A stretch of 6,621 nt of DNA. Source: a virus (taxonomy: Duplodnaviria; Heunggongvirae; Uroviricota; Caudoviricetes). Numbering within the stretch: the first letter of the stretch is position 1; each line of letters opens with the position of its first letter. The translations under genes were made by a program, and so were the position numbers. Of the stretch, positions 1,730 to 6,621 are shown piece after piece. The stretch lies in the IMG/VR virus record IMGVR_UViG_3300007747_000100; one strand, 5' to 3'. The notes beneath the pieces were generated by a model. It was not told where the DNA came from, did not search any database, and saw nothing but the letters and a program-made list of their open reading frames with translations.

Positions 1730-2358
1730 GTGGCAGCCTCCTTCAGATAGCAGGTTACGCTACCACCGGAAACGCCAATTTCGCTGGTGGTAGCCCAGAC
1801 AGGGTTGGCGTAACCGGCTCTGAAGGATACCGGCGCTTCCGAAGAAGCCCCCGCCTGAGCCACCATTGATTGACAAAGGCGCTGGATTATACACCAACGC
1901 CCAAAAAATGGGTGAGTCAGACCTACGACATAAAAAAAGACGCTCGGCGCGTCATATGTCGCCTTCAGAATTTTCAGGACGCCAATCCCGGCACCCGTTT
2001 TATGAGGTGCCTTATAACCATAAACCGTGTTGCCGCATAACGGCAAGCTCTTTTTTATGGACTCCGAAAACTCACTATTGGAAGTAACGTCACGCGCGTG
2101 GACGAAGGTTTTTGTGGAGTCACTACACGAGCAGAGAAAGCCATCTACGACCAGAAATTCTCTGGCATAGCCGCTGACCTTCTCAACGCTAACACCATCG
2201 ACCGTAATTTCTGACATAGTTAAGGCATCCGCTCCTACCACCAGCAAATGATAAACTTTGCTTGTATCTGCTGTATTAATGTCTGACTTTGCTGTCATAT
2301 TGCTGGATTTTGGCGACATACCAGCCAGTGAAAATGTCTTCTTCTGGACGGGTATCAT
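1730..2358 (-). CDS. hypothetical protein, 5' portion of the 344-aa track ORF; 3' end unresolved (possible frameshift/pseudogene or genuine overlap)
   Basis: ATG 2358..2356 overlaps the stop of the 59-aa ORF (ATGA), GGAGG with 7-nt spacer upstream. The frame stays open to 1324, but downstream of about 1730 the evidence favours two separate small genes. The other two minus frames have stops at 1765..1763 and 1757..1755, just upstream of the next gene's RBS. Contains terminator-like hairpins on both strands. Confidence 0.35.
1932..1953 (-). terminator. terminator-like hairpin plus T-run on the minus strand, inside the long ORF
   Basis: On the minus strand: GACGC / GCGTC stem (1939-1953 in plus coordinates) with a 5-nt loop, followed by seven T (plus-strand A-run 1932-1938). 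The same bases encode ...[10 protein letters not shown] in the ORF frame. Confidence 0.3.
2030..2056 (+). terminator. terminator-like hairpin plus T-run on the plus strand, inside the long minus-strand ORF
   Basis: Stem TTGCCG (2030-2035) / CGGCAA (2041-2046), loop CATAA, then GCTC and TTTTTT (2051-2056). Confidence 0.35.
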
Positions 2359-3372: not shown

Positions 3373-3678
3373 TTAGGCGGCGTTAAACGCGTCCGGGTAG
3401 AGTTTCAGAATGTCGGCAATTTCCTGCTGAGAAAGTCCGTTGTGATCATTTATGTTCGCAAGATGGTTAACATGAGTGATCACTTTCAGAACATCACCAC
3501 GGCAGGAGAAACGGTAGCGAAGGTGTGTTCCGATACCATCAGGATTCTTTTCGTCGATACGCTCCAGAGTGATTCCAAGCTGGCGTTCTAACTCTGTTGC
3601 ATAGTTACGACCAGAAGACAGACGGCAGTAGCGAAGAATGTCATTTTCTGTCCATCCCTCTATACCAGTACGCAGCAT
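3373..3678 (-). CDS. hypothetical protein, 101 aa
   Basis: Track ORF; ATG 3678, weak AAGAG upstream; 12-nt gap to the next gene; same strand and operon context as alpA. No family recognised. Confidence 0.6.
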   Translation of the reverse strand: MLRTGIEGWTENDILRYCRLSSGRNYATELERQLGITLERIDEKNPDGIGTHLRYRFSCRGDVLKVITHVNHLANINDHNGLSQQEIADILKLYPDAFNAA

Positions 3679-3720: not shown

Positions 3721-3939
3721 TCAGGCCACCTTCCCGCGGCGTTCTGCCAGCCAGTTATTAATTTCCACCGCATCAAACGCAGTCACGTTATCTGTTAGCT
3801 TCACTGGGCGTGGAAGAGTGCCATTTTTAACCCATCTATCAATAGTAGGCAGTGAAACACCTAGCAATTCCGGCATGCGAAAGCGACGGATGTATCCAGT
3901 TGTTGGGATAGCTGATGATGCTGGCTTGTGTGCTGTCAT
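3721..3939 (-). CDS. alpA: AlpA/Vis-family phage transcriptional regulator / excisionase-like HTH protein, 72 aa (start uncertain)
   Basis: Segment RMPELLGVSLPTIDRWVKNGTLPRPVKL matches the characteristic AlpA-family helix-turn-helix pattern (recalled family knowledge, so the symbol is family-level). The ATG at 3939 has only a weak SD and the 5' end carries TGATAGCT-type motifs, so the true start could be further downstream (e.g. Met22). Confidence 0.75.
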   Translation of the reverse strand: MTAHKPASSAIPTTGYIRRFRMPELLGVSLPTIDRWVKNGTLPRPVKLTDNVTAFDAVEINNWLAERRGKVA

Positions 3940-3956
3940 ATCTCTAGTAACCTCTC

Positions 3957-3969
3957 TGATAGCTCATGA
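3957..3969 (+). repeat. 13-mer TGATAGCTCATGA, copy 1 (alpA leader / 5' end)
   Basis: Exact 13-bp match to 6435-6447; contains the recurrent oriented 8-mer TGATAGCT. Confidence 0.5.
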
Positions 3970-4020
3970 AGTTACTTAAAGTTTAGTGGTTGCCCATACA
4001 GTATTTCTATTAAGACTAGA

Positions 4021-4052
4021 ATCTATTGAAAGAAATTATAAATCTATTGAAA
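4021..4052. promoter_or_regulatory. operator-like direct repeats ATCTATTGAAA (x2, 21 bp apart) flanking a minus-strand TATAAT; candidate promoter/operator of the alpA operon
   Basis: ATCTATTGAAA at 4021-4031 and 4042-4052. Between them the minus strand reads TATAAT (plus coordinates 4035-4040). No convincing -35 found; the A/T-rich upstream could act as an UP element. About 95 nt upstream of the alpA ATG. Confidence 0.3.
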
Positions 4053-4230
4053 AAATACCGATCCACTGAAAGATTGCAAATACAGGTGGGATAATTATTT
4101 TCTTTATTTTCAATTAGTTACCAGTTTAAAAAATCATTGTTTTATCAAAGAGTTATATCTTTCATCGTCATTCATCATGTTTTTACATTTCTTTTTATCT
4201 TTTATTATTCAATTGGTTGAGTCGGTTTAT

Positions 4231-4270
4231 AATGGCTCATGATGGCTTAAAATGGCTAATGATAGCTGGC
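4231..4270 (+). repeat. four tandem 10-bp repeats (aATGGCTcat / gATGGCTtaa / aATGGCTaat / gATAGCTggc), helically phased
   Basis: Direct reading: core (A/G)AT(G/A)GCT begins at 4231, 4241, 4251 and 4261, exactly 10 bp apart, in the AT-rich region between the 216-aa gene and alpA. Confidence 0.6.
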
Positions 4271-4410
4271 GTATCTTTTAGAGATGGGGTGATTACAGAT
4301 GAACTAAGCCGAACAGATATAGCAATGGCTAGGCATAGAATTATCTATGCTGGTGGAGATGGGTAAACAGGTAATGCCCCGCCATTGCTTTGGAGGGGCG
4401 TGAAAAGTGA

Positions 4411-5061
4411 TTAGTCGAGATCGTGGACAGCTAATAAAGCCCGTGAGATTTTTTCTAGGAATGTGGCTTTTGCTATTCCTTTATGGGATATCCCTTCATC
4501 CTTGATTAAGGTTTCTATGTCACGGTATATAGCTGTGCGATTAGGTTTCCCATTTTGGATGTAGGAAGATGAGCCTGATTTTTTTATCAGCAGATGTACT
4601 ATCAACCCCATCATTTTCATTGTCCCGTTTTCCTCATCCTGCTTTCTATGCTGCCCACGTCCGCTGCGGTTGGTTTCTTTGATGTAGTTTACTAACTGGA
4701 GTCCTCCAAGGTTTCGGGCTTTTTCTTCCCAGCCCTTGGTGCCACGCAAATCATCAATCGCTTCTGATATTTTCTGAACAATTATTTCTGGTGTATTTGT
4801 GTCAATAAATGGGTAAGAAGCTAAGAAAATATCAAGGGCATGGCAAGGCTCGTCTTTACTAGTTTTTTCACCTCTGTACACCTTGATAGCTCTGGCAAGA
4901 TGAGTTCTGACAAAATCGACATATTCGAAATTTTCCTCAGGCACATCGCTAATGCGCATAGATGGGTTTAGGCCAGCCAAGGCCACAGCCATTTCATGAG
5001 GGGTAATCGATACAGATGAACAAAGCCGTTCGATTGGCGATTTTCTCAAGATGTTGTTCAC
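4411..5061 (-). CDS. hypothetical protein, 216 aa, unknown function; integrase-coupled accessory gene
   Basis: GTG start 5061..5059 overlaps the integrase stop (GTGA) and is preceded by GGAGG with a 5-nt spacer. Long open frame, and visibly more AT-rich than the integrase gene by eye. No conserved motif recognised (no Walker A, no clear transmembrane segment). Confidence 0.7.
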   Translation of the reverse strand: MNNILRKSPIERLCSSVSITPHEMAVALAGLNPSMRISDVPEENFEYVDFVRTHLARAIKVYRGEKTSKDEPCHALDIFLASYPFIDTNTPEIIVQKISEAIDDLRGTKGWEEKARNLGGLQLVNYIKETNRSGRGQHRKQDEENGTMKMMGLIVHLLIKKSGSSSYIQNGKPNRTAIYRDIETLIKDEGISHKGIAKATFLEKISRALLAVHDLD

Positions 5062-6326
5062 ATTTGCCTCCGGGCTTTATCGAATGGCGTTACGTTGTAG
5101 TCTTTCCCGCTTTCCAGTGCCACCAGCAGATCAGCCCACTGTGCCAGCGCAGCTTTACGCTCATCAAAATACTGATGGCGGTTATAAATCCCCTCCACAC
5201 CCTTAATGCGATGATTGAGGCATCGTTCCGCTACGACAGGATCAACACCCAATGCTGCTAAATGAGTACGTGCGGTACGCCGGAAGTCGTGAATCGTGAA
5301 ATTAGGCACATCCGGCATTTCGGCGCGAACCTTAGCCAGTGCTACGGGTAAAGTGCTTTCCTGAATATGTGGGATCATTCTGTTTTGCATCTTCCTGGCT
5401 GGAAGCACCCATGCGCTATTACATGAAAAGGTGTGTAGCTCTCTCAACCATTCAACGGCTGGGGAAGGTAGAGGTATATCAATAGGGTCTCCGTTTTTGC
5501 TGCGTTCTTCCGGCAAATGCCATACCGCACCATCTAAATCAAACTCTTCCCATCGTGCGGCGCATAACTCCATCTTACGAACGCATAGTGCCAGCAATAG
5601 CTTAAATGTCAGTTCGTTCTGGCGGCTGAATCCTTTTGCGGTGCGCATAGCCTCGAATAGCCTGATAAGCTCATCGCGAGTTAGCCAACGGTCGCGGGAA
5701 ACCTCTTTACCACCAGCATCAGATACTTCAAACGCTGAACAAGGGTTTATCTCCAGAGCGTGGCGTTTTATCCCATAGTCAAAGATACGGCGTGCCCAGC
5801 GTAATACATCTGTTGCTATCGTTGGTGCTCCTCGGTCAACGATACCTTTCAACATGTCGTCAATGTGGCGTGGCTTAACGTCCTCTACCTTCATATGCCC
5901 AATGCAGGGGTTAATATCCTTATCAATTCTCCGGCGAAGGATATCGGGATGTTTCCATCTCGGAAGTATCTGGCGCTCGAAGTATTCGGAGGCCAGATCT
6001 GAAACACGCATGGCGTTTTTCTCAGCCTCCATTTTTGCCAGTGCTTCAGCTTTTCGTTCCTGTTTCTCTGCTGCTACGTCATAGCCAAGAGCAACTCTGG
6101 CTGACAGCTCTTTTGCTGTTTCTCTGGCTTTTGATAGTGACAGTTCGGAGTAAGAGCCTATAACCATAGCCCGCTGCTTTCCTGCGAGCTTATAGCGGAA
6201 TCGCCAGAACGGGACTGTGTAGTTTTTGGGGTAGCAAATATAAAGGCCGTTGCCGTCTGCCTTGCCATCAAATCTGTCTCCCGCCTTTATCCATGCGCGG
6301 ATCTGCATATCTGTGAGTTTTGGCAT
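5058..6326 (-). CDS. int: tyrosine site-specific integrase, P4-like family (about 422 aa)
   Basis: N-terminus MPKLTDMQIRAWIKAG...DGNGLYI matches the arm-binding N-terminal domain typical of P4-type integrases. The C-terminal region has the tyrosine-recombinase hallmarks (HDFRRTARTH; GIYNRHQY with the presumed catalytic Tyr). Start trimmed from the track's 6410 to the ATG at 6326..6324. Confidence 0.9.
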   Translation of the reverse strand: MPKLTDMQIRAWIKAGDRFDGKADGNGLYICYPKNYTVPFWRFRYKLAGKQRAMVIGSYSELSLSKARETAKELSARVALGYDVAAEKQERKAEALAKMEAEKNAMRVSDLASEYFERQILPRWKHPDILRRRIDKDINPCIGHMKVEDVKPRHIDDMLKGIVDRGAPTIATDVLRWARRIFDYGIKRHALEINPCSAFEVSDAGGKEVSRDRWLTRDELIRLFEAMRTAKGFSRQNELTFKLLLALCVRKMELCAARWEEFDLDGAVWHLPEERSKNGDPIDIPLPSPAVEWLRELHTFSCNSAWVLPARKMQNRMIPHIQESTLPVALAKVRAEMPDVPNFTIHDFRRTARTHLAALGVDPVVAERCLNHRIKGVEGIYNRHQYFDERKAALAQWADLLVALESGKDYNVTPFDKARRQM

Positions 6327-6355
6327 TGCGAATACCTGAATATCGAATATGGGGG

Positions 6356-6405
6356 TGTACATAAAGCAATGTACATGAAAGTCATTATGTACACCTCTAT
6401 GTACA
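6356..6405. promoter_or_regulatory. four TGTACA hexamers immediately upstream of the integrase start (candidate regulator or arm-type binding sites)
   Basis: TGTACA at 6356-6361, 6370-6375, 6388-6393 and 6400-6405, mostly in the context ATGTACA(C/T), within 80 bp upstream of the int ATG at 6326. Confidence 0.45.
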
Positions 6406-6434
6406 CGCATATTGTGCGCTTTGTTGCGTTGTTA

Positions 6435-6447
6435 TGATAGCTCATGA
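6435..6447 (+). repeat. 13-mer TGATAGCTCATGA, copy 2 (between the int upstream region and the junction terminator); candidate att or arm-type site
   Basis: Exact 13-bp direct repeat of 3957-3969. A further TGATAGCT lies at 6508-6515, overlapping the stop codon of the flanking gene. Confidence 0.45.
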
Positions 6448-6451
6448 TAAC

Positions 6452-6488
6452 AAAAAAGCCCGACATTTCGCGGGCTTTGTGGTTTTTT
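6452..6488. terminator. bidirectional rho-independent terminator
   Basis: GC-rich stem GCCCG (6458-6462) / CGGGC (6471-6475), extendable to AAAGCCCG/CGGGCTTT, with an 8-nt loop. It is flanked by an A-run (6452-6457) and a T-run (6483-6488), so it reads as hairpin plus U-tract on either strand. Confidence 0.6.
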
Positions 6489-6514
6489 GCTGCTTGGTGA
6501 TTTTTACTGATAGC

Positions 6515-6621
6515 TTATTCGATATTCTGAATCTGCTCGCGCATCTGCTCAATCAACACTTTCAGCTCGATGGCAGAATTCGTCACTTCGGCATTGATAG
6601 ATTTCGAAGCAAGAGTGTTCG
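6515..6621 (-). CDS. 3' end of an unidentified, presumably chromosomal gene (partial)
   Basis: Minus-strand frame open from the window edge to TAA at 6517..6515 (C-terminus ...INAEVTNSAIELKVLIEQMREQIQNIE), followed downstream by the hairpin terminator. Product not recognised. Confidence 0.5.
   Translation of the reverse strand, partial: NTLASKSINAEVTNSAIELKVLIEQMREQIQNIE

What the first reader, a model, noticed from the sequence alone, without database searches (positions are those of the whole stretch)
6349..6410. Four TGTACA hexamers upstream of int, with a CCTCT-TGTACAC plus TGATAGCT module duplicated inside the cargo gene
TGTACA occurs four times within 50 bp just upstream of the integrase ATG. 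The track's longer int ORF (start 6410) reads through these repeats, which is why I place the start at 6326. The fourth copy, in context CACCTCTaTGTACAC with TGATAGCT 30 bp further on (6435), has a near-duplicate at 4869-4891 (CACCTCTGTACACC followed by TGATAGCT at 4884) within the 216-aa coding sequence. This could be a duplicated recombination or regulatory site, or a scar of how the cargo gene was inserted.
Basis: seen in the sequence. Interest (0 to 1): 0.45.

Follow-up and report, generated by a model that had tools for sequence, protein, structure and literature searches.

The report
Integrase arm-binding repeats of a satellite island
The four TGTACA hexamers are the cores of the repeated DNA sites that a phage-P4-type integrase most likely grips to insert and cut out its mobile island next to the E. 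coli yicC gene, an ordinary and already known kind of feature, and the look-alike inside the neighbouring gene is most likely a coincidence.

Summary
TGTACA occurs at 6356, 6370, 6388 and 6400, and the look-alike sits at 4869-4891.

The window is the int-proximal end (attR) of an ~18 kb PICI/P4-like satellite island inserted at the 3' end of E. coli yicC. The real repeat unit is a 12-mer, GTGTACATARAG, not the palindromic hexamer. Two abutting direct copies lie at 6383-6406 and two inverted copies at 6355-6380.

- The same doublet sits at the other end of the island.
- The GTAC cores are invariant in 28 relatives.
- The motif changes as the integrase diverges.
- The layout matches the "attP arm sequence repeat" features annotated in phage P4.
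- The integrase has an Arm-DNA-binding domain.

I read the repeats as arm-type Int sites. They fill the only space available for the int promoter, so autoregulation is likely, but that step is inferred.

TGATAGC belongs to two arrays of heptamers phased 10 bp apart between the arm sites and the core. The motif recurs in the alpA leader and tracks the AlpA class, so these are probably excisionase (AlpA/Vis-like) sites.

The composite inside the 216-aa gene is absent from all 13 homologues, so it is most likely coincidence. That gene is a conserved gene whose start overlaps the int stop, not a fresh insertion. The int start at 6326 is supported.

This is a new member of a known kind, of low interest.

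The parts
6395..6406 (-). Arm-type site P-4. It reads GTGTACATAGAG in the int direction and holds the fourth TGTACA.
   Evidence: It abuts the next 12-mer, like the P4 doublet 3942-3965. The TGTAC core is invariant in 28 relatives.
6383..6394 (-). Arm-type site P-3. It reads GTGTACATAATG in the int direction and holds the third TGTACA.
   Evidence: It is a direct repeat of P-4 at 12-bp spacing. Five of the six GTGTAC core columns are invariant in 28 relatives and the sixth is nearly invariant.
6369..6380 (+). Arm-type site P-2, inverted and degenerate. It reads ATGTACATGAAA and holds the second TGTACA.
   Evidence: It is the least conserved site. It is lost in 4 of 28 relatives and degenerate in E. 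coli E2855.
6355..6366 (+). Arm-type site P-1, inverted. It reads GTGTACATAAAG and holds the first TGTACA.
   Evidence: It is an inverted repeat of P-3 (I10). The GTACA core is invariant in 28 relatives. Its flank changes in step with that of P-4: ACCTRG, CCAAAG or ATARAG.
6415..6451 (+). Four heptamers phased 10 bp apart: TGCGCTT, TGCGTTG, TGATAGC and TGATAAC.
   Evidence: They are conserved in relatives, where they read GTTATCAtggGCTATCAtaaAGACGCAacaAAGCGCA in the int direction. They are replaced by phased CACTCC in islands with another AlpA class.
6455..6478 (-). Intrinsic terminator carried by the island, which ends yicC transcription.
   Evidence: The hairpin plus T-run is conserved in all yicC-attached relatives.
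6488..6514 (+). Three heptamers phased 10 bp apart next to the core: TGCTGCT, TGATTTT and TGATAGC.
   Evidence: Read directly from the sequence. GCTATCA or ACTATCA lies in the first or second heptamer position after the yicC stop in relatives.
6516..6527 (.). att core identity block TTATTCGATATT. It covers the last three codons and part of the stop codon of yicC, re-supplied by the island with synonymous changes.
   Evidence: Homology to empty sites starts at 6513-6515. The core was reconstructed from attB, attR and intact attL copies.
6338..6349 (.). Inverted copy of the core 12-mer (GAATATCGAATA), lying between site P-1 and the int ATG.
   Evidence: It is 100% complementary to 6516-6527 (I17). 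A core-like element with 9-11 of 15 matches sits about 27 nt before the ATG in roughly 15 of 25 relatives. Its role was not tested.
5058..6326 (-). int, a P4-family tyrosine integrase of 422 aa.
   Evidence: Pfam domains: Arm-DNA-bind_3 at aa 4-90 (E = 8.9e-20), Phage_int_M and Phage_integrase. It is 25% identical to P4 Int over about 400 aa. RefSeq places the start at 6326.
4411..5061 (-). 216-aa gene whose start codon overlaps the int stop (phrog_30524, function unknown).
   Evidence: It has no Pfam, NCBIfam or PADLOC match.
4869..4891 (.). Internal look-alike: CACCTCTGTACACC followed by TGATAGCT. It encodes A-I-K-V-Y-R-G and I judge it coincidental.
   Evidence: It is not conserved in 13 homologues. 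Nominal p is about 0.005.
3721..3939 (-). alpA, an AlpA/Vis-family helix-turn-helix protein and the probable recombination directionality factor and activator.
   Evidence: Pfam Phage_AlpA. PHROG 'excisionase and transcriptional regulator'. It is 32% identical to P4 Vis.
3957..3969 (+). TGATAGCTCATGA in the alpA 5' leader, an exact copy of 6435-6447.
   Evidence: D2. AGCTATCA lies directly upstream of the alpA Shine-Dalgarno sequence in most class-1 AlpA islands (12 of 15). Islands of other AlpA classes carry their own attR motif there.
4230..4266 (+). Four more heptamers phased 10 bp apart (TAATGGC, TGATGGC, AAATGGC, TGATAGC) in the intergenic region upstream of alpA.
   Evidence: D1. Phased counterparts with other sequences occur in L007 and L038. 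The binding protein is unknown.

Best explanation
The window is the attR end of a satellite island (PICI/P4-like) that a P4-family tyrosine integrase has inserted at the last codons of E. coli yicC. The four TGTACA hexamers are the centres of four 12-bp arm-type sites with consensus GTGTACATARAG. Two are abutting direct copies and two are inverted copies. I propose that the N-terminal arm-binding domain of Int binds them. Together with a matching doublet on the other arm, now at the far end of the island, they would let Int bridge the arms and the core and build the intasome for integration and excision. Between the arm sites and the core lie two arrays of TGATAGC-type heptamers phased 10 bp apart. 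These are most likely where the AlpA/Vis-like excisionase polymerises and bends the DNA. The same motif sits in the alpA leader, which fits AlpA also acting on its own gene. The arm and RDF sites fill the whole 130 bp between the island-borne yicC terminator and the int ATG, so the int promoter must overlap them. Int, and probably AlpA, should therefore repress int, as shown for P4 and KplE1. The similar sequence inside the 216-aa gene is a coincidence of Val-Tyr-Arg-Gly and Ala-Ile codons. What is shown: sequence anatomy, conservation, covariation, and equivalence of layout to P4. What is inferred: which protein binds which site, and the autoregulation.
For: (1) The cluster is real: 5 TGTACA against 1.1 expected.
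(2) The locus is attR of a dinD-yicC island. Homology to empty sites starts at the yicC stop.
(3) The far island end carries ATGTACACCCTTATGTACAC about 70 nt from the junction. This doublet is conserved in five divergent E. coli islands.
(4) In 28 relatives aligned, the GTAC cores of three sites are invariant, while the flanks vary in a concerted way between the direct and inverted copies.
(5) The motif changes as Int diverges. It is GTGTACMC in nearly all relatives at 61-92% identity, TGTACCAA in a 67-74% clade, GTGCAC in Azonexus and one MAG (64-66%), GTAGCT at about 42%, GGGGGTAT or GTTGGTAT at about 30%, and GGGGGCAT in P4. The arrangement of two direct copies at 12 bp plus inverted copies is kept throughout.
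(6) In 71 of 75 relatives a 6-mer occurs at least 3 times within 130 nt upstream of int, against 22% of control windows.
(7) Int has Pfam Arm-DNA-bind_3.
(8) The P4 GenBank record annotates the same layout as 'attP arm sequence repeat': an abutting 12-bp doublet, an inverted copy at the int ATG, the core about 115 bp away, and a doublet on the other arm.
(9) RDF sites are typically direct repeats one helix turn apart, and an RDF can also act at promoters (PMC7498355).
(10) The phased motif switches to CACTCC in islands with a different AlpA class but the same GTGTAC arms. That variant motif then also appears in their alpA leaders.
(11) Int and the RDF repress int where the promoter overlaps att, in KplE1 and P4 (PMC2951348). 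PAI I536 Int represses its own promoter (PMC7286903).
Against: No binding or genetic data exist for this element. No sigma-70-like int promoter was found by the consensus scan, so overlap with the promoter is inferred from lack of space. In EcCICFT073, a PICI with a different integrase, AlpA did not change Pint activity (PMC6092414). AlpA classes 1-3 are only about 38% identical to each other yet share the CTATCA/CTAGCA motif, so the AlpA-motif link is not one-to-one. The phased array at 4230-4266 has different sequences in close relatives with 85-92% identical AlpA, so a second protein may be involved there. In the window's own strain the attL core appears partly deleted, so the sites may no longer be used for excision here.
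Confidence: 0.85

Rival explanations
1. The composite inside the 216-aa gene (GTGTACA next to GCTATCA, 4869-4891) is a functional third Int/AlpA binding locus or a relic att site. It could be used for looping, for silencing the int-orf216 operon, or as a secondary recombination site.
For: Such a pair within 40 nt arose in only 0.5% of shuffles and 0.25% of synonymous resamplings. It has the same orientation as sites P-3 and P-4 and shares the flank GAGGTG. P4 also has an annotated arm repeat inside a coding sequence, int, at 3621-3632.
Against: It is absent from all 13 homologues, including those at 83%, 72% and 69% identity whose islands use the same arm and RDF motifs. Where GTAC recurs (L038, L007) it is shifted by 2 nt and comes from Val-His codons. 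The amino acids encoded here vary (Y/H, R/S, G/D). E. coli has only two alleles of the gene, at 99% or more and at about 70% identity, and the second lacks the site. The pairing was found post hoc among many possible coincidences.
Confidence: 0.08
2. The TGTACA repeats are operator sites for a transcription regulator, such as AlpA, the 216-aa protein or a host factor. They would control int expression only and would not be integrase arm sites.
For: They lie directly upstream of int, where a promoter must be. Inverted and direct repeats are also typical of operators.
Against: The same doublet sits at the other end of the island, about 18 kb away and next to no gene start. The motif stays GTGTAC when the AlpA class changes (L057, L063) and in islands without the 216-aa gene. 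It co-varies with Int across 28-92% identity. The layout equals the P4 arm repeats. There is no IHF consensus in the region.
Confidence: 0.05
3. The repeats are coding sequence of a longer integrase that starts at 6410, or they are a chance cluster.
For: An open frame runs from 6410. P4 Int may use two starts (recalled abstract of Piazzolla et al. 2006).
Against: The extension is closed by stops within 6 codons in 11 of 27 relatives, and the region has indels. The conserved Arm-binding domain starts at residue 4 of the short form. RefSeq uses 6326. Cluster statistics exclude chance.
Confidence: 0.02

Closest known systems
Phage P4 attP arm sequence repeats (Pierson & Kahn 1987; annotated in NC_001609)
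   Same: The geometry is the same. There is an abutting 12-bp direct doublet upstream of int and an inverted copy next to the int ATG. The core lies about 110-130 bp from the doublet, and a second doublet lies 55-95 bp beyond the core. Phased RTCC-type repeats sit between the arm sites and the core. Int has an arm-binding N-domain, and a Vis/AlpA-family RDF is present.
   Different: The motif is GTGTACA instead of GGGGGCA. Int is only 25% identical. The target is the 3' end of the protein gene yicC rather than tRNA-Leu, so the P arm carries its own terminator and re-supplies the yicC stop. There are two inverted copies rather than one. The element is a PICI-like island without the P4 sid/psu/delta genes in the part seen.
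KplE1 (CPS-53) attL / intS promoter with IntS arm-type (P') and TorI sites (Panis et al. 2010, PMC2951348)
   Same: The int promoter is forced to overlap the att arm. Arm-type and RDF sites lie between the core and the int start. Int and the RDF both repress int.
   Different: It uses a different integrase lineage and target (argW tRNA). The sites there were mapped experimentally, whereas here they are only inferred.
Lambda attP arm-type sites P1, P2, P'1-3 with Xis sites X1, X1.5, X2
   Same: A heterobivalent Int bridges the arm and core sites. RDF sites are phased direct repeats on one arm, between the arm sites and the core.
   Different: In lambda the int gene does not start in the att arm, and int is transcribed from pI/pL. 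The proteins and motifs are unrelated.
186 Apl / P2 Cox dual-purpose RDFs (PMC7498355)
   Same: They use direct repeats at 10-11 bp spacing both at att and at a promoter region. Binding is cooperative and bends the DNA. This matches the two phased arrays at attR and the motif in the alpA leader.
   Different: Apl and Cox are a different protein family. The promoter-side function in PICIs is activation of alpA (PMC6092414), not repression of a lytic switch.
Gram-negative PICIs such as EcCICFT073, including reference PICIs integrated in yicC
   Same: The int ... alpA ... primase organisation matches. AlpA is needed for induction and activates its own gene. yicC is a known PICI target with drifting att identity blocks (bioRxiv 10.1101/2022.07.18.500453).
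   Different: The passages I checked in these papers do not describe arm-type sites or AlpA sites, and the island here also carries phage-like genes further left.

Membership tests
P4-type attP arm-type integrase sites | An adjacent tyrosine integrase of the P4 family with an N-terminal arm-binding domain | tested here: met
   Pfam Arm-DNA-bind_3 E = 8.9e-20, plus Phage_int_M and Phage_integrase. BLASTP to P4 Int gives 25% identity over 411 aligned positions, E = 2e-20.
P4-type attP arm-type integrase sites | Repeats lie between the int start and the att core, on the element side of the junction | tested here: met
   The core is at 6516-6527, found by comparison with empty sites. The repeats lie at 6355-6406.
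P4-type attP arm-type integrase sites | Copies of the same motif occur on both arms of attP | tested here: met
   The far end of the island carries RTGTACACCCTTRTGTACACGG about 70 nt from the junction in five island variants.
P4-type attP arm-type integrase sites | An abutting 12-bp direct doublet plus inverted copy or copies near the int ATG, as annotated in P4 | tested here: met
   In the window these are 6383-6394/6395-6406 (direct) and 6355-6366/6369-6380 (inverted). In P4 they are 3942-3953/3954-3965 and 3915-3926.
P4-type attP arm-type integrase sites | The site sequence co-varies with the cognate integrase across relatives | tested here: met
   At least six motif classes follow Int divergence while the architecture is kept. 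The cores are invariant within the close clade. Enrichment is 71/75 against 22% of controls.
P4-type attP arm-type integrase sites | Int binds the sites, and the sites are required for recombination | not testable with these tools
   This needs a footprint or EMSA and mutant att recombination assays.
RDF (Xis/Vis/AlpA-type) binding arrays | Direct repeats spaced about one helix turn apart | tested here: met
   Heptamers start at 6415, 6425, 6435 and 6445, and at 6488, 6498 and 6508. The criterion comes from PMC7498355.
RDF (Xis/Vis/AlpA-type) binding arrays | The array lies on one arm, between the arm-type sites and the core | tested here: met
   Both arrays lie between 6406 and 6516. No such array was seen on the far arm.
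RDF (Xis/Vis/AlpA-type) binding arrays | The motif tracks the cognate RDF protein | tested here: inconclusive
   Class-4 AlpA (L057, L063) goes with CACTCC, and class 5 with ATCTCA/ATATCA. In both cases the motif is also present in the island's own alpA leader. However, classes 1-3 are about 38% identical to each other and share CTATCA/CTAGCA. Islands with the same AlpA and a different Int could not be isolated.
RDF (Xis/Vis/AlpA-type) binding arrays | The RDF binds and bends the DNA, and is required for excision | not testable with these tools
   This needs AlpA EMSA or footprinting and excision assays.
Autoregulated int promoter overlapping att (KplE1/P4 paradigm) | The int promoter lies within the region occupied by the Int and RDF sites | tested here: inconclusive
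   A terminator at 6455-6478 isolates int from yicC, so the promoter must lie in 6327-6454. No consensus promoter was detected there.
Phage-inducible chromosomal island (Gram-negative PICI) | An int, alpA and primase-replicase module, no phage structural genes, and a size of 12-15 kb | tested here: inconclusive
   int, alpA, AntA, Ash and a DUF5906 primase are present. The dinD-yicC interval is about 18 kb and also holds a 'phage DNA ejection protein' and an ImmA/IrrE gene, so it may be composite.

The most novel reading that the evidence does not exclude
The arm-like plus RDF-like composite inside the 216-aa gene (4869-4891) is a genuine, lineage-specific third binding locus, comparable to the arm repeat annotated inside the P4 int coding sequence. 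Int and AlpA bound there and at attR would loop the int-orf216 operon and couple its silencing to intasome assembly.
Probability: 0.07. Interest if true: 0.4.

Novelty: new member of a known kind. Interest (0 to 1): 0.2.

Why it matters
The result gives a concrete, testable arm-site consensus (GTGTACMYRRAG) and a candidate AlpA/RDF heptamer array for the widespread yicC-targeting integrase clade of Enterobacterales satellites. It also gives a natural covariation series, from GTGTAC to TGTACC, GTGCAC, GTAGCT and GGGGGYAT. That series could be used to study, or to reprogramme, the arm-site specificity of P4-family integrases. It does not reveal a new mechanism.

Tried and rejected
- **Local-alignment control.** I compared 6340-6450 with the rest of the window under lenient scoring. 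The scoring favoured long weak alignments, so I replaced it with the motif-pair shuffle test.
- **Promoter scan.** No int promoter was found. My hand inspection gave only weak candidates (CTATCA-18-CATGAT type), so the promoter is left unmapped.
- **IHF consensus.** There is no hit in attR.
- **PADLOC, Pfam and NCBIfam for the 216-aa protein.** No match. Only an unannotated PHROG matched.
- **E. coli population test of the internal copy.** Only two alleles exist, at 99% or more and at about 70% identity, so there are no intermediate alleles to test.
- **Search with alpA DNA.** I wanted islands with the same AlpA but another integrase. Loci could not be told apart from the table, so I dropped the test.
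- **RNAalifold on alpA leaders.** MAFFT could not align the variable 5' stem halves and no pairs were predicted. Single-sequence folds were used instead.
- **Rejected readings.** TGTACA as a palindromic operator or a restriction/methylation site is rejected because the unit is asymmetric and oriented. "Cargo insertion scar" is rejected because the gene is a conserved gene that overlaps the int stop codon.

Full report
**Observation.** TGTACA occurs at 6356, 6370, 6388 and 6400, and once more at 4875. That is 5 copies against 1.11 expected, and only 1 of 200 shuffles reached 5. TGATAGCT occurs at 3957, 4260, 4884, 6435 and 6508, which is 5 copies against 0.28 expected, and no shuffle reached 5.

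**Where the window comes from.** Bases 3900-6621 are 100% identical to many E. coli chromosomes, for example SF-166 and PA45B. All genes lie on the minus strand:
- the 3' end of yicC, with its stop at 6515-6517
- a tyrosine integrase that RefSeq starts at window 6326 (422 aa)
- a 216-aa hypothetical gene
- an AlpA-family helix-turn-helix gene
- AntA/B, DUF4222 and Ash genes, and further left a DUF5906 primase

In genomes without the element, homology to the window begins at 6513-6515, which is the yicC stop. In such genomes dinD lies about 220 bp from yicC. In SF-166 the dinD-yicC interval holds about 18 kb of foreign DNA. The window is therefore the int-proximal junction (attR) of an island integrated at the end of yicC. 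yicC is a documented target of PICI-type satellites and of genomic islands (bioRxiv 10.1101/2022.07.18.500453, PMC8978831).

**What the repeats are.** The palindromic hexamer is not the unit. Read in the int direction, the region is GTGTACATAGAG|GTGTACATAATG ... cTTTcATGTACAT ... CTTTATGTACAC. This gives two abutting direct 12-mers (6395-6406 and 6383-6394) and two inverted ones (6369-6380 and 6355-6366). Six lines of evidence identify them as arm-type integrase sites.

1. The other end of the island, next to dinD, carries ATGTACACCCTTATGTACAC about 70 nt inside the junction. This doublet is conserved in five divergent E. coli islands.
2. I fetched 80 loci encoding relatives of the integrase. 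All but one of those with 60-92% identity whose upstream flank was recovered sit directly after a yicC 3' end. Each shows the same order: about 50 nt, a terminator hairpin, phased heptamers, two direct 12-bp-spaced sites, then usually two inverted sites, then the int ATG. In a 28-sequence alignment the GTAC cores of three sites are invariant. The second site is the weakest. The flanks of the direct and inverted copies change together: ACCTRG, CCAAAG or ATARAG.
3. The motif changes with integrase divergence while the architecture stays. It is TGTACCAA in Rahnella, Yersinia and Pantoea, GTGCAC in Azonexus, GTAGCT in Steroidobacteraceae, and GGGGGTAT or GTTGGTAT in Hydrogenophaga.
4. In 71 of 75 relatives some 6-mer occurs at least 3 times within 130 nt upstream of int, against 22% of control windows.
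5. The integrase carries Pfam Arm-DNA-bind_3 at residues 4-90.
6. The GenBank record of phage P4 annotates "attP arm sequence repeat" features with the same geometry. It has an abutting 12-bp doublet (3942-3965, TGGGGGCATAAT TGGGGGCATCTT), an inverted copy at the int ATG (3915-3926), the core at 4078-4097 and a doublet on the other arm (4151-4174). The window's Int is 25% identical to P4 Int and its AlpA is 32% identical to P4 Vis.

**The int start.** RefSeq uses it. The conserved MPKLTD/MAKLTD start is preceded by an in-frame stop within 6 codons in 11 of 27 relatives. The upstream region also has indels.

**The TGATAGCT motif.** On the plus strand, heptamers start at 6415, 6425, 6435 and 6445 (TGCGCTT, TGCGTTG, TGATAGC, TGATAAC). 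After the terminator hairpin (6455-6478) more start at 6488, 6498 and 6508 (TGCTGCT, TGATTTT, TGATAGC). The last one abuts the core. These are two arrays phased at 10 bp, lying between the arm sites and the core. Direct repeats one helix turn apart, at att and also at a promoter, are the hallmark of recombination directionality factors (PMC7498355). As I recall Cali et al. 2004, which is cited but which I did not read here, P4 Vis binds two boxes between int and the core.

The exact 13-mer TGATAGCTCATGA recurs at 3957, directly upstream of the alpA Shine-Dalgarno sequence. AGCTATCA occupies that position in most islands with the same AlpA class, 12 of 15. In Aeromonas rivuli and Pantoea stewartii islands the arm sites are still GTGTAC, but AlpA belongs to another class. 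There the phased motif is CACTCC, and it reappears in their alpA leaders. A third AlpA class uses ATCTCA/ATATCA in both places. This favours AlpA as the binder, and AlpA is known to activate its own gene in E. coli PICIs (PMC6092414).

The link is not perfect. AlpA classes 1-3 share the motif at only about 38% identity. A further phased array at 4230-4266 has different sequences in close relatives.

**The att core.** attB reads GAGTTACTCAATATTCTGAATCTG. attR reads GATAGC-TTATTCGATATT-CTGAATCTG. Intact attL copies read GAGTTACTCAATATT-GAATCTG.... The identity block is therefore about TTAYTCRATATT. The island re-supplies the last yicC codons with synonymous changes, together with its own terminator.

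**The internal copy.** The 216-aa gene starts with a GTG that overlaps the int stop. It has homologues in the same position in 13 related islands at 23-83% identity (phrog_30524). It is a conserved gene overlapping the int stop codon, not a recent cargo insertion.

The look-alike encodes A-I-K-V-Y-R-G. The closest homologues read GCAATCAAAGTACATCGAGG (83%), GCACTAAAGGTACACAGGGA (72%) and GCTATCAGGCTGCATAGTGG (69%). None keeps the composite. Where GTAC appears it comes from Val-His codons and is shifted by 2 nt.

A single extra GTGTACA in 6.3 kb is expected, with P(at least 1) = 0.32. The pairing with TGATAGC within 40 nt is nominally rare, at 0.5% of shuffles and 0.25% of synonymous resamplings, but it was selected post hoc. 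I conclude it is a coincidence and keep a residual of about 8% for a lineage-specific site. P4 does carry an annotated arm repeat inside its int coding sequence.

**Mechanism.**
- Shown: the anatomy, the conservation, the covariation and the equivalence to P4.
- Inferred: the Int N-domains bind the 12-mers on both arms while the catalytic domains bind the core. AlpA polymerises on the phased heptamers and bends the P arm to favour excision.
- Also inferred: the terminator at 6455-6478 isolates int from yicC, and the remaining 130 bp are filled with these sites. The int promoter must therefore overlap them and be repressed by Int, and perhaps by AlpA. This has been shown experimentally for KplE1 IntS/TorI and reported for P4 Int/Vis (PMC2951348) and for PAI I536 Int (PMC7286903).
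- Caveats: no consensus promoter was found. AlpA did not affect Pint in EcCICFT073.

**Novelty.** This is the P4/KplE1 paradigm in a yicC-targeting clade. The papers I could search did not describe the specific consensus or the covariation series, but the kind of feature is textbook. Interest is low (0.2), and I class it as a new member of a known kind.

Noticed in passing
L003 14225-14250 (far end of the same island in strain SF-166); also L086, L087, L088 and L089: In the window's own island type, attL reads GAGTT|GGATCTGTTTGTAGAG and lacks the 10-bp ACTCAATATT core that intact copies keep (E2855, 30821_1#330). Two other island variants lack the core in different ways. The island may be locked in. 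Alternatively this may be the 'attB drift' reported for yicC PICIs.
   Followed up: partly
window 1783-1870 (-) and 1933-2010 (-): Rfam finds C4 antisense RNA (79.9 bits) and isrK (67.8 bits) inside the 5' half of the ORF annotated as a 344-aa 'ash family protein'. The Ash domain covers only aa 113-221. The long ORF start is therefore probably wrong, and a P1/P7-like c4-type RNA module is present.
   Followed up: no
window 3945-3975 (-), alpA 5' leader: A hairpin encloses AGCUAUCA and the Shine-Dalgarno sequence. Relatives keep a hairpin at this place with different but complementary stems (AGUAAC/GUUACU, CCCCAUAAC/GUUAUGGGG, CCCCGUUAC/GUAACGGGG, CUGCCA/UGGCAG). This suggests a conserved RNA or cruciform element controlling alpA. 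RNAalifold failed because the alignment was poor.
   Followed up: partly
window 6338-6349 versus 6516-6527: A perfect 12-nt inverted copy of the att core (GAATATCGAATA / TATTCGATATTC) lies between the last arm site and the int ATG. A core-like element with 9-11 of 15 matches sits about 27 nt before the ATG in roughly 15 of 25 relatives. It could be a core-type Int site over the int ribosome-binding region.
   Followed up: partly
window 4411-5061 (-): The 216-aa 'cargo' gene overlaps the int stop (GTGA). It is conserved directly after int in 13 related islands from several genera (23-83% identity). It matches only phrog_30524 of unknown function, so it is an uncharacterised conserved partner of this integrase clade.
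   Followed up: partly
window 4021-4073: Three direct repeats, ATCTATTGAAAGA, lie at about 21-bp spacing, 80-135 nt upstream of alpA. They are conserved in L007 and L038 (TTTCAATAGATT x3). They probably form an operator at the alpA promoter for an unknown regulator.
   Followed up: no
window 4230-4266: A third array phased at 10 bp (TAATGGC, TGATGGC, AAATGGC, TGATAGC) lies just downstream of the 216-aa gene. Relatives that have that gene carry phased arrays at the same place with other sequences (GTCGTT-type). The binder may therefore not be AlpA.
   Followed up: no
window 6515-6621 versus empty-site genomes: The last 107 nt of yicC in the window are only 91.6-97.2% identical to yicC in genomes without the island. 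This is more divergent than expected for a core gene. It is consistent with part of the yicC 3' end being supplied by, or exchanged with, the island.
   Followed up: no
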